This document shows positions 11,771 to 12,431 of a stretch of 18,695 nt of DNA, piece after piece. The notes under the pieces are model-generated. The model had not been told where the DNA came from. It did no database searches and saw nothing but the letters and a program-made list of their open reading frames with translations. How positions within the stretch are numbered: the stretch's first letter is position 1; each line of letters opens with the position of its first letter. Location of the stretch: IMG/VR virus record IMGVR_UViG_2609459839_000004. One strand, written 5' to 3'. The position numbers were made by a program, and so were the translations under genes. This stretch comes from a virus. Lineage: Duplodnaviria; Heunggongvirae; Uroviricota; Caudoviricetes.

Positions 11771-12004
11771 TCAATCTGGTCTGACCTGCTTTCTGAGCAA
11801 TTCAGTAATGTCACTCTTTTCTTTGTTTGCTTCAGGCGAAACTCTTTTTTCTGAGCACAGTCTTCGGCGGCAGGCTTCAATGACCCAGGCTGAGAAATTC
11901 CCAGACCCTTTTTGATCAAGAGCGATGTTAATTTGTTCAATCATTGGGTTAGGAAAGCGGATGTTGCGGGTTGTTGTTCTGCGGGTTCTGTTCTTCGTTG
12001 ACAT
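11771..12004 (-). CDS. Small basic protein (77 aa), possible ribbon-helix-helix DNA binder (YlcI/DUF3950-like)
   Basis: Minus-strand ORF with Arg-rich N-terminus and PNPMIEQINIALDQKGSGNFSAWVIEACRRRL segment; family assignment tentative. Confidence 0.4.
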   Translation of the reverse strand: MSTKNRTRRTTTRNIRFPNPMIEQINIALDQKGSGNFSAWVIEACRRRLCSEKRVSPEANKEKSDITELLRKQVRPD

Positions 12005-12169
12005 GAGGTTGCCCTGTATTCAGTGTCACTGATTTGTATTGTCTGAAGTTGTTTTTACGTTAAGTTGATGCAGATCAATTAATACGATACCTGCGTCATA
12101 ATTGATTATTTGACGTGGTTTGATGGCGTAGATGCACGTTGTGACATGCAGATGATAATTATTATCATT

Positions 12170-12431
12170 TTGCGGGTCCTTTCCGGCGATCCGACAGGTT
12201 ACGGGGCGGCGACCTCGCGCGTTTTCACTATTTATGAGATTTTTTGAGGGGGTGGTTGTTGTTTAATTGTTTGGTATATCTAATTGATAAGTAAGGTGAA
12301 AATAAAATAAATACAACAACCTTACGATGTGTTTTGATGTCGCCAATGCGAAAAATGTCAATGATATCAAATGGTTTTGCAAAAACACATGGTTGTTGTT
12401 TCGCTTTTTATCGATGACTTATGGAGAGGAG
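12170..12431 (+). other. cos region: lambda-like cosQ and cosN (12204-12215), diverged cosB
   Basis: ...gatgataattattatcattttgcgggtcctttccggcgatccgacaggttacg|gggcggcgacctcgcg... matches the lambda right-end/left-end junction as recalled; downstream sequence differs from lambda cosB. Confidence 0.75.

What the first reader, a model, noticed from the sequence alone, without database searches (positions are those of the whole stretch)
12004..12431. Lambda-type cosQ/cosN paired with a different cosB carrying a repeated TGGTTGTTGTTT motif
The 12-nt cohesive-end sequence gggcggcgacct and its left flank are almost identical to lambda as recalled, but the cosB side differs. It contains the exact 12-mer TGGTTGTTGTTT twice in direct orientation (12253-12264 and 12390-12401) and an inverted partial copy (acaacaacc, 12313-12321), spaced like terminase small-subunit binding sites. 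The second copy lies inside the long track ORF upstream of ATG 12432, supporting the shorter start.
Basis: partly seen in the sequence, partly recalled or inferred. Interest (0 to 1): 0.45.

Follow-up and report, generated by a model that had tools for sequence, protein, structure and literature searches.

The report
N15/Monarch-type lambdoid cos packaging site
This is an intact DNA-packaging (cos) site of a lambda-like prophage whose terminase-binding repeats are the published phage N15/"Monarch" type, sitting in a decayed E. coli prophage that has lost most of its packaging genes; it is real but ordinary.

Summary
cosQ (12174-12180) and the cohesive end GGGCGGCGACCT (12204-12215) are lambda-like, and homology to lambda stops at lambda bp 41. 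TGGTTGTTGTTT occurs at 12253-12264 and 12390-12401, with an inverted copy at 12313-12322.

The three copies sit where R3, R2 (inverted) and R1 sit in lambda and phage 21, and an IHF-like site lies at bp 74-86, the position annotated as I1 in phage 21. They are among the five longest invariant runs in 13 diverged cos regions. The core equals the mutationally defined R3 of phage N15. The adjacent Nu1-family terS encodes the same recognition helix (SVQAFDKW) as N15 TerS. In 26 loci from about ten gammaproteobacterial genera the core lies 16-18 bp after a conserved cosN-proximal box, whatever the distance to terS.

This matches the tripartite, N15-specificity "Monarch-group" cosB of Feiss et al. 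2015, so it is already known. I could not obtain Monarch's own sequence.

The ATG at 12432 is the real terS start.

In this window a 4.9-kb deletion truncates terS after codon 125 and removes terL, W, portal and most of C. The cos site is therefore an orphan, usable only in trans.

The parts
11771..12004 (-). ylcI/ynfO-like DUF3950 gene. It is the last gene before cos and carries a coding GGTTGTTGT copy at 11969 that lambda also has.
   Evidence: Pfam DUF3950, E=5e-21; annotated YlcI/YnfO in relatives; aligned to lambda.
12174..12180 (+). cosQ (GGGTCCT), the packaging-termination subsite.
   Evidence: GGGTCC is invariant in 13 diverged cos regions. The sequence and its offset from cosN are identical to lambda. 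The role is taken from the literature (PMC4669245, PMC9026076).
12204..12215 (+). cosN cohesive-end sequence GGGCGGCGACCT (bp 1-12).
   Evidence: Identical to the first 12 bases of lambda and phage 21. Annotated as cohesive end in the 21 and N15 records.
12228..12237 (+). Conserved CTATTTATGA box (bp 25-34) between cosN and R3.
   Evidence: Present as CTAYNTATGA-like in 26 of 26 related loci. The R3 core follows 16-18 bp later.
12253..12264 (+). R3 (TGGTTGTTGTTT, bp 50-61): the critical TerS-binding site that anchors TerL at cosN.
   Evidence: TGTTGTTT is invariant. It matches N15 bp 50-60, where scrambling bp 54-59 GTTGTT cut yield about 100-fold (PMC4669245). Spacing to cosN is fixed.
12277..12289 (-). 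I1, candidate IHF site (TATCAATTAGATA, 12 of 13 to WATCAANNNNTTR; bp 74-86).
   Evidence: Same bp position as the annotated I1 of phage 21. TTGATAAGTAA is nearly invariant among enterobacterial relatives.
12313..12322 (-). R2 (ACAACAACCT, bp 110-119), an inverted copy of the R motif.
   Evidence: 10-nt invariant run; 100% complementary to the R3 core (pair I6). R3-to-R2 core spacing is 59 bp, against about 61 in lambda.
12365..12377 (+). Second IHF-like site (TATCAAATGGTTT, 12 of 13) between R2 and R1; role uncertain.
   Evidence: partly conserved (ATCA...GGTT).
12390..12401 (+). R1 (TGGTTGTTGTTT, bp 187-198), a direct copy and probably an accessory TerS site.
   Evidence: GGTTGTTGT is invariant. 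It lies 78 bp after R2, against about 41-44 bp in lambda and 21.
12423..12431 (+). Ribosome-binding site GGAGAGGAG of terS.
   Evidence: Read directly from the sequence; conserved in relatives.
12432..12808 (+). terS (Nu1 family) codons 1-125: winged-HTH DNA-binding domain with recognition helix SVQAFDKW, plus the central domain. The C-terminal TerL-binding part is missing.
   Evidence: Pfam Phage_Nu1, E=9e-14. The first 26 residues are nearly identical to N15 gp1. AF2 N-terminal 50 residues have pLDDT 85-90 with a beta-alpha-alpha-wing-alpha order. Fold hits include lambda gpNu1 DBD 1J9I.
12807..12808 (.). Deletion junction. 4,911 bp are missing relative to an intact relative: the terS 3' end, terL, W, portal and the 5' two-thirds of C. 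The terS frame runs on for 22 foreign codons to the stop at 12875.
   Evidence: The same junction is in IMGVR_UViG_2617270987_000004 and in none of 5,426 complete E. coli genomes.

Best explanation
The region is the cos site of a lambda-like prophage. It combines a lambda-type cosQ and cosN with a tripartite cosB (R3 - IHF site I1 - inverted R2 - R1) whose R elements have the core GGTTGTTGT. This is the recognition sequence of the N15-type small terminase subunit.

Mechanism, inferred by homology with lambda, 21 and N15. Dimeric winged-HTH domains of TerS (recognition helix SVQAFDKW) dock on R3 and R2 across an IHF-induced bend at I1, with R1 as an accessory site. R3-bound TerS places TerL at a fixed distance so that it nicks cosN and generates the 12-nt cohesive ends. 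cosQ serves packaging termination.

This corresponds to the complex 'Monarch-group' cosB of N15 packaging specificity described by Feiss and co-workers.

In this window the site is intact but orphaned. A 4.9-kb deletion truncates terS after codon 125 and removes terL, W, portal and most of C. The site can therefore only be cut by a terminase of the same specificity supplied in trans.
For: Shown here:
- The motifs are at the reported coordinates and strongly over-represented.
- R3, I1 and R2 are at bp 50-61, 74-86 and 110-119. Annotated phage 21 sites are at 50-65, 74-86 and 107-122. R3-R2 spacing is 59 bp against about 61 in lambda.
- In 13 diverged cos regions the five longest invariant runs are cosQ, a T6 run, R3, R2 and R1. 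The spacers, and in some relatives even the cohesive-end sequence, vary.
- N15 carries GAGGTTGTTGTTT at bp 48-60.
- terS is a Phage_Nu1 family member. Its N-terminal domain is nearly identical to N15 gp1, including SVQAFDKW, whereas lambda has SIRTIQNW and phage 21 has DPRTIERW, each with its own R motif.
- All 25 loci encoding this helix, from Escherichia, Trabulsiella, Pluralibacter, Erwinia, Aeromonas, Pseudomonas, Halomonas, Oceanimonas and others, plus N15 itself, have the GTTGTTGT core 16-18 bp after the CTAYNTATGA box. The distance to terS varies from 38 to 177 bp. The motif is therefore tied to cosN, not to terS expression.
- The AF2 model of the N-terminal domain is a winged HTH that resembles lambda gpNu1 DBD and other small-terminase DBDs.

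From the literature (PMC4669245):
- Scrambling N15 bp 54-59 (GTTGTT) lowers yield about 100-fold.
- Monarch-group prophages have an N15-like R3, an identical recognition helix, three R sites plus I1, and no rR2.
Against: - No binding or cleavage data exist for this cosB or this TerS. The assignment rests on conservation, position and homology.
- The motif is a low-complexity (GTT)3 run.
- The IHF sites match the degenerate consensus only 12 of 13. I1 is not conserved in the Aeromonadaceae relative L087.
- R1 is about 35 bp further from R2 than in lambda or 21.
- I could not obtain the Monarch sequence itself (PMC4461450 is not held), so membership of that group rests on its published description.
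- No sequenced phage isolate among 50,697 records carries this cosB, so functional phages of this exact type are only inferred from intact prophages.
Confidence: 0.88

Rival explanations
1. The repeats are chance or slippage-generated low-complexity (GTT)n tracts in an AT-rich intergenic region, with no function.
For: The motif is a trinucleotide run, which repeat finder excludes as a direct repeat. Similar 2-mismatch matches occur elsewhere in the window.
Against: The three copies are invariant while their spacers diverge. They lie at the canonical R3 and R2 positions. The core keeps a 16-18 bp distance from the cosN-proximal box in 26 of 26 loci across about ten genera. The N15 copy is mutationally validated (PMC4669245).
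Confidence: 0.02
2. The repeats act in expression of terS rather than in packaging. They could be an operator or promoter element, or, through the R2/R1 inverted repeat, an mRNA hairpin that controls translation of terS.
For: R2 and R1 lie within a longer imperfect inverted repeat (12304-12335 / 12382-12408). R1 is only about 30 bp from the terS ATG. The minimum-free-energy RNA fold pairs R2 with R1.
Against: The RNA fold is no more stable than shuffles (z = -0.56). The motif tracks cosN, not the terS start, whose distance from R3 varies from 38 to 177 bp. In simple-cosB relatives the inverted copy sits inside terS at +146 to +158. The stems are invariant, so there is no covariation evidence either way.
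Confidence: 0.05
3. The sites are bound by a protein other than TerS, such as a host nucleoid protein or another phage factor.
For: There is no direct binding evidence for TerS at these sites. The region is enriched in IHF-like matches: 4 of the window's 24 fall within 216 bp.
Against: The R motif changes together with the TerS recognition helix across lambda, 21 and N15-type phages, and stays the same wherever the helix SVQAFDKW is kept, from Escherichia to Pseudomonas and Halomonas. Hybrid-phage genetics links cosB-N15 to the TerS-N15 N-terminus (PMC4669245).
Confidence: 0.05

Closest known systems
cosB of the 'Monarch' group of N15-like prophages (Feiss et al. 2015, Virology 482:260; described in PMC4669245)
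   Same: N15-type R3 sequence; TerS recognition helix identical to TerS-N15; tripartite R3-I1-R2(inverted)-R1 layout upstream of terS; no full rR2 inside terS; lambda-like cosQ and cosN.
   Different: Nothing demonstrably different. Monarch's own sequence and spacings could not be retrieved, so identity is inferred from the published description. Here terS is truncated and terL is deleted.
cos of phage N15 (simple cosB)
   Same: Same R core (GGTTGTTGTTT at bp 50-60 in N15, 51-61 here). Same TerS DNA-binding domain: residues 1-26 are nearly identical and the nucleotide sequence is 74% identical over 128 nt.
   Different: N15 has only R3 upstream, with terS starting at bp 89, plus a remote inverted rR2 at bp 249-260 inside gene 1. 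It has no I1, R2 or R1. Its cohesive end differs at bp 9 and 12 (GGGCGGCGTCCG).
cos of phages lambda and 21
   Same: cosQ, cosN and the first 41 bp are nearly identical to lambda. The subsite order and the bp positions of R3, I1 and R2 are the same. A Nu1-family TerS gene lies immediately downstream.
   Different: The R motif is different: CGTTTCC in lambda and ATGTCGG in 21, against GGTTGTTGT here. The recognition helix is different. R1 lies about 35 bp further from R2, and terS starts at bp 229 instead of 189-191.

Membership tests
Lambda-like cos site (cosQ-cosN-cosB) | 12-nt cohesive-end sequence closely related to lambda's GGGCGGCGACCT | tested here: met
   Identical 12-mer at 12204-12215.
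Lambda-like cos site (cosQ-cosN-cosB) | Conserved 7-bp cosQ upstream of cosN | tested here: met
   GGGTCCT at 12174-12180, at the same offset as in lambda; invariant in relatives.
Lambda-like cos site (cosQ-cosN-cosB) | Complex cosB: three related R sequences in the order R3-I1-R2-R1, with R2 inverted and R3 at about bp 50-65 | tested here: met
   R3 at bp 50-61, R2 at bp 110-119 (inverted), R1 at bp 187-198. Compared with the annotated sites of phage 21.
Lambda-like cos site (cosQ-cosN-cosB) | IHF binding site I1 between R3 and R2 | tested here: inconclusive
   A 12-of-13 match to WATCAANNNNTTR lies at bp 74-86, the same position as I1 of phage 21, and is conserved among enterobacterial relatives. 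The consensus is degenerate and binding was not tested.
Lambda-like cos site (cosQ-cosN-cosB) | Nu1-family TerS gene with an N-terminal winged HTH immediately downstream | tested here: met
   Pfam PF07471; AF2 winged-HTH model and structural hits to 1J9I, 7LW0 and 6HN7_B. In this window the gene is truncated at codon 125.
Lambda-like cos site (cosQ-cosN-cosB) | Terminase nicks cosN and TerS binds the R sites | not testable with these tools
   Needs cos-cleavage and gel-shift assays or virion end mapping.
N15 / Monarch packaging-specificity class | R3 strongly matches R3-N15 (N15 bp 48-59, critical GTTGTT at 54-59) | tested here: met
   Window GGTTGTTGTTTAAT against N15 GGTTGTTGTTTAAT; definition from PMC4669245.
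N15 / Monarch packaging-specificity class | TerS recognition helix identical to that of TerS-N15 | tested here: met
   GISVQAFDKWGV is identical in both proteins.
N15 / Monarch packaging-specificity class | Monarch subgroup: tripartite cosB with I1, and rR2 absent from terS | tested here: met
   Tripartite layout shown. At the rR2 position (about +158) the window has GACAACACAAT, only 6 of 9 of the core (compared).
N15 / Monarch packaging-specificity class | Sequence identity to the Monarch prophage itself | not tested
   The Monarch sequence or accession could not be obtained.

The most novel reading that the evidence does not exclude
The combination kept in this decayed prophage may not be mere debris. 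It retains a perfectly intact cos and a 147-aa TerS remnant that has the DNA-binding and oligomerisation domains but lacks the TerL-binding C-terminus. That is about the size and layout of PICI Rpp proteins. It could act on superinfecting or co-resident phages of N15/Monarch specificity in two ways. It could be a packaging decoy or dominant-negative inhibitor, or a launch site for helper-driven packaging of adjacent chromosomal DNA.
Probability: 0.06. Interest if true: 0.55.

Novelty: already known. Interest (0 to 1): 0.15.

Why it matters
The result mainly serves annotation. It places cosQ, cosN, R3, I1, R2 and R1 exactly in a prophage type found in about 4% of complete E. coli genomes (233 of 5,426), where cos is not annotated. 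It also fixes the terS start at 12432.

It gives comparative support for the Feiss model that R3 is tethered to cosN. It shows that the GGTTGTTGT / SVQAFDKW recognition pair is kept from Escherichia to Pseudomonas, Aeromonas and Halomonas in both complex and simple cosB layouts.

It does not open a new question. The specificity class and the tripartite architecture are published.

Tried and rejected
- **RNA element formed by the R2/R1 inverted repeat.** The fold is no better than shuffles (z = -0.56). Rejected.
- **Longer ORF from the ATG at 12327.** There is no Pfam hit. The upstream frame and ATG are not conserved, and relatives carry indels. Rejected in favour of 12432.
- **GGTTGTTGT copy at 11969 as a fourth R site.** It is coding sequence of the ylcI-like gene and is present in lambda too. 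Not counted.
- **Retrieval of the primary Monarch paper.** PMC4461450 is not held. Literature and taxonomy searches for Monarch's identity found nothing.
- **Search for a sequenced phage isolate with this cosB.** None among 50,697 records, even at E = 1. Only partial terS matches to N15 and PhiR12 phages were found.
- **Sequence search of TerS against PDB.** Only weak hits to lambda gpNu1 (E = 0.2-0.6). The Foldseek E-values are also weak (0.007-0.09), although probabilities are 0.99-1.0. The family assignment rests on Pfam.
- **Deletion as an artefact of the window.** The same junction is in a public IMG/VR contig. Rejected.

Full report
**1. Observation**

- The cohesive-end sequence GGGCGGCGACCT is at 12204-12215.
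- cosQ (GGGTCCT) is at 12174-12180.
- TGGTTGTTGTTT is at 12253-12264 and again at 12390-12401.
- The inverted ACAACAACC is at 12313-12321.

The 9-mer core GGTTGTTGT occurs four times in the 18.7-kb window, all within 11969-12399. Dinucleotide-preserving shuffles give 0.19 expected, and 0 of 200 shuffles reach four.

Two cautions apply.
- The motif is a (GTT)3 run, which is why repeat finder does not report it as a direct repeat.
- The 11969 copy is coding sequence of the ylcI/DUF3950 gene (11771-12004, minus strand) and is also present in lambda. It does not belong to this cosB.

A local alignment with the circularised lambda junction shows near-identity from window 11842 to 12244, which corresponds to lambda 48141-48502 plus bp 1-41. 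Homology ends there. The "lambda-type cosQ/cosN, different cosB" description is therefore correct.

**2. Anatomy**

| Element | Window coordinates | bp position |
|---|---|---|
| R3 | 12253-12264 | 50-61 |
| IHF-like site (TATCAATTAGATA, minus strand, 12 of 13 to WATCAANNNNTTR) | 12277-12289 | 74-86 |
| Inverted copy (R2) | 12313-12322 | 110-119 |
| Third copy (R1) | 12390-12401 | 187-198 |
| terS ATG | 12432 | 229 |

The curated phage 21 record annotates R3 at 50-65, I1 at 74-86, R2 at 107-122 (opposite orientation), R1 at 150-166 and terS at 189. Lambda's own R sites read from its sequence are at about bp 53-59, 114-120 (inverted) and 155-161.

R3, I1 and R2 thus sit at the canonical positions. 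The core-to-core R3-R2 distance is 59 bp here and about 61 bp in lambda. Only R1 is displaced, at 78 bp from R2 instead of about 41-44 bp. A second IHF-like match (12365-12377) lies in that longer spacer.

**3. Conservation**

A TerS-based scan of IMG/VR returned 430 relatives, of which 80 were kept. Their cos regions collapse to 50 distinct sequences.

I aligned 13 diverged representatives, with TerS identity down to 62% and including an Aeromonadaceae MAG. The five longest invariant runs are:
- cosQ GGGTCC;
- a T6 run at 12240-12245;
- TGTTGTTT in R3 (12257-12264);
- ACAACAACCT in R2 (12313-12322);
- GGTTGTTGT in R1 (12391-12399).

The spacers carry substitutions and an 11-bp indel. In several relatives even the cohesive-end sequence differs. 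TTGATAAGTAA, which overlaps I1, is nearly invariant among the enterobacterial members but not in the Aeromonadaceae one.

**4. Link to TerS**

The downstream ORF is a Phage_Nu1 family protein (Pfam PF07471; E = 9e-14 for the window copy and 1.4e-21 for an intact relative). Its first 26 residues are almost identical to N15 gp1 and include GISVQAFDKWGV. Lambda has SIRTIQNW and phage 21 has DPRTIERW at the same place.

A single-sequence AlphaFold model gives pLDDT 85-90 for residues 1-50, with the order beta, alpha1, alpha2 (18-22), two-strand wing, alpha3. Foldseek returns small-terminase DNA-binding domains (7LWR, 7LW0), lambda TerS in 6HN7, and the gpNu1 DNA-binding domain 1J9I (rmsd 2.8 Å over 55 columns). 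Probabilities are 0.99-1.0, although E-values are weak.

N15 itself carries GAGGTTGTTGTTTAATC at bp 48-64. According to PMC4669245, R3-N15 is bp 48-59. Scrambling bp 48-53 lowered the yield about 7-fold, and scrambling bp 54-59 (GTTGTT) lowered it about 100-fold. The repeated motif in the window is therefore the experimentally defined N15 TerS site.

**5. Wider test**

A scan of one genome per species for the recognition-helix peptides found 25 loci. They come from Escherichia, Trabulsiella, Pluralibacter, Erwinia, Aeromonas, Pseudomonas, Halomonas/Vreelandella, Oceanimonas, Oceanisphaera and one contig labelled Chryseobacterium.
- Every locus has GGTTGTTGT-like sequence upstream of terS.
- With N15 added, in 26 of 26 loci the GTTGTTGT core begins 16-18 bp (mode 17) after the conserved CTAYNTATGA box that follows cosN. 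The intervening sequence varies freely, and the distance from R3 to the terS start ranges from 38 to 177 bp.

The motif is therefore anchored to the nicking site and not to the gene. This is what the lambda literature says about R3, where the cosN-R3 distance is critical (PMC4669245, PMC9026076).

Many of the short, "simple" versions have an inverted AACAACAACC at +146 to +158 inside terS. That is the rR2 of N15. At that position the window has only GACAACACAAT, which is 6 of 9 of the core.

**6. What it is**

All four published properties of the "Monarch" group of N15-like prophages are met (PMC4669245):
- a strong match to R3-N15;
- a recognition helix identical to TerS-N15;
- a tripartite cosB with an IHF site between R3 and R2;
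- no rR2.

I could not obtain the Monarch sequence itself. The primary paper is not held, and literature and taxonomy searches were unhelpful.

The inferred mechanism follows the lambda model.
- IHF bends I1 so that a TerS winged-HTH dimer docks on R3 and R2.
- R1 is accessory.
- R3-bound TerS positions TerL to nick cosN.
- cosQ acts in termination.

By analogy with N15, a terminase of this specificity would initiate here. Lambda terminase probably would not, since it cannot package N15 DNA (PMC4669245). These steps are inference; nothing was measured for this site.

**7. Start codon**

The ATG at 12432 has a GGAGAGGAG ribosome-binding site. It aligns with the N15 gene 1 start and is the PGAP start in the intact relative. 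The alternative ATG at 12327 exists only in the closest relatives, and the upstream open frame is cut by stops or indels elsewhere. The 35-aa extension has no family match.

**8. Context**

The window is a decayed version of a prophage that is intact in E. coli E275a (99.6-100% identity). It has three clean deletions, with junctions at 12807/8, 16441/2 and 18161/2.
- The first deletion (4,911 bp) removes terS codons 126-168, terL, W, the portal gene and the 5' two-thirds of C. It leaves a 147-aa TerS remnant.
- The same junction is present in one IMG/VR contig that is 100% identical to the window over 2.8 kb. It is absent from 5,426 complete E. coli genomes.
- An IS3-family element occupies 1-1370.

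The cos site itself is identical to that of the intact relative. It is an orphan, cleavable only in trans.

This cosB type occurs in 233 of 5,426 complete E. coli genomes. It occurs in none of 50,697 deposited phage genomes.

**9. Rivals**

- Chance or slippage is excluded by the conservation and the fixed spacing.
- An mRNA hairpin formed by R2 and R1 is not supported. The fold has z = -0.56, and the motif follows cosN rather than terS.
- Binding by some other protein cannot be formally excluded. It is unlikely, because the motif changes with the TerS recognition helix across lambda, 21 and N15-type phages and stays constant wherever that helix is kept.

**10. Verdict**

The finding is real and correctly interpreted, but it rediscovers a published cosB class. 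Interest is low. Three modest additions come out of this work:
- the longer, conserved R2-R1 spacing with a second IHF-like site;
- the breadth of the GGTTGTTGT / SVQAFDKW pairing across Gammaproteobacteria;
- the orphan status of this particular cos.

Noticed in passing
window 12807-12808, 16441-16442, 18161-18162: There are three clean deletions relative to the intact E. coli E275a prophage: 4.9, 5.7 and 6.7 kb. They remove the terS 3' end through the C 5' part, then V through K, then most of J, lom and the tail fibres. Each junction has a 2-nt overlap. Sequence to the right of the first junction is 100% identical to E275a. The first junction is also in IMGVR_UViG_2617270987_000004.
   Followed up: partly
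window 1-1370: An IS3-family insertion sequence (HTH orfA at 1-522, rve-integrase orfB at 519-1370) abuts the prophage remnant at about 1397. The relative E275a instead has an IS2 inserted at the point corresponding to window position about 6020.
   Followed up: partly
window 4248-5827: A eukaryote-like Ser/Thr protein kinase (4248-5087) and a PP2C phosphatase (5084-5827) lie as an overlapping gene pair just downstream of the antiterminator Q (3483-4178).
   Followed up: no
window 7494-7743: A prophage tRNA cluster has anticodons CAT, TCG (Arg) and TCT (Arg). ARAGORN calls the CAT tRNA Met, whereas RefSeq annotates it as Ile in the relative.
   Followed up: no
L060-L063, L066, L087 (cos regions, about 230 bp upstream of terS): The same GGTTGTTGT-type cosB is paired with quite different cohesive-end sequences, for example GGGTCGGTGGAC and GGGTGCGTATAC. 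cosN and cosB therefore assort independently.
   Followed up: partly
L085, L088-L107 (genome-contig loci): TerS genes with the SVQAFDKW helix occur in Pseudomonas, Halomonas, Aeromonas, Oceanimonas, Erwinia and Trabulsiella. Most have the simple N15-like layout: R3 lies 38-61 bp before terS and an inverted AACAACAACC at +146 to +158. This is a much wider host range than the handful of N15-like prophages mentioned in PMC4669245.
   Followed up: partly
L090 (contig labelled Chryseobacterium sp. 18061): This locus has a hybrid layout: R3 at -91, an inverted copy at -35 and a direct copy at +138 inside terS. The host label is odd for a gammaproteobacterial-type cos and may reflect contamination.
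   Followed up: no
window 12304-12335 and 12382-12408: R2 and R1 sit inside a longer imperfect inverted repeat, AAAATAAATACAACAACC...ATGTGTTTT against AAAACACATGGTTGTTGTTTCGCTTTT. The T-run and A-run flanks are partly conserved in relatives. The meaning is unknown.
   Followed up: partly
window 12151-12166: A near-perfect AT-rich palindrome (GATGATAATTATTATC) lies just upstream of cosQ. It is also present in lambda with small changes.
   Followed up: no
window 12432-12808 versus phage records: terS is itself mosaic. The first 128 nt or so are 74% identical to N15 gene 1. The 3' part (window about 12634-12808) is 78% identical to Nu1 of the PhiR12 phages. This suggests exchange of the cosB plus DNA-binding-domain cassette as a unit.
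   Followed up: no
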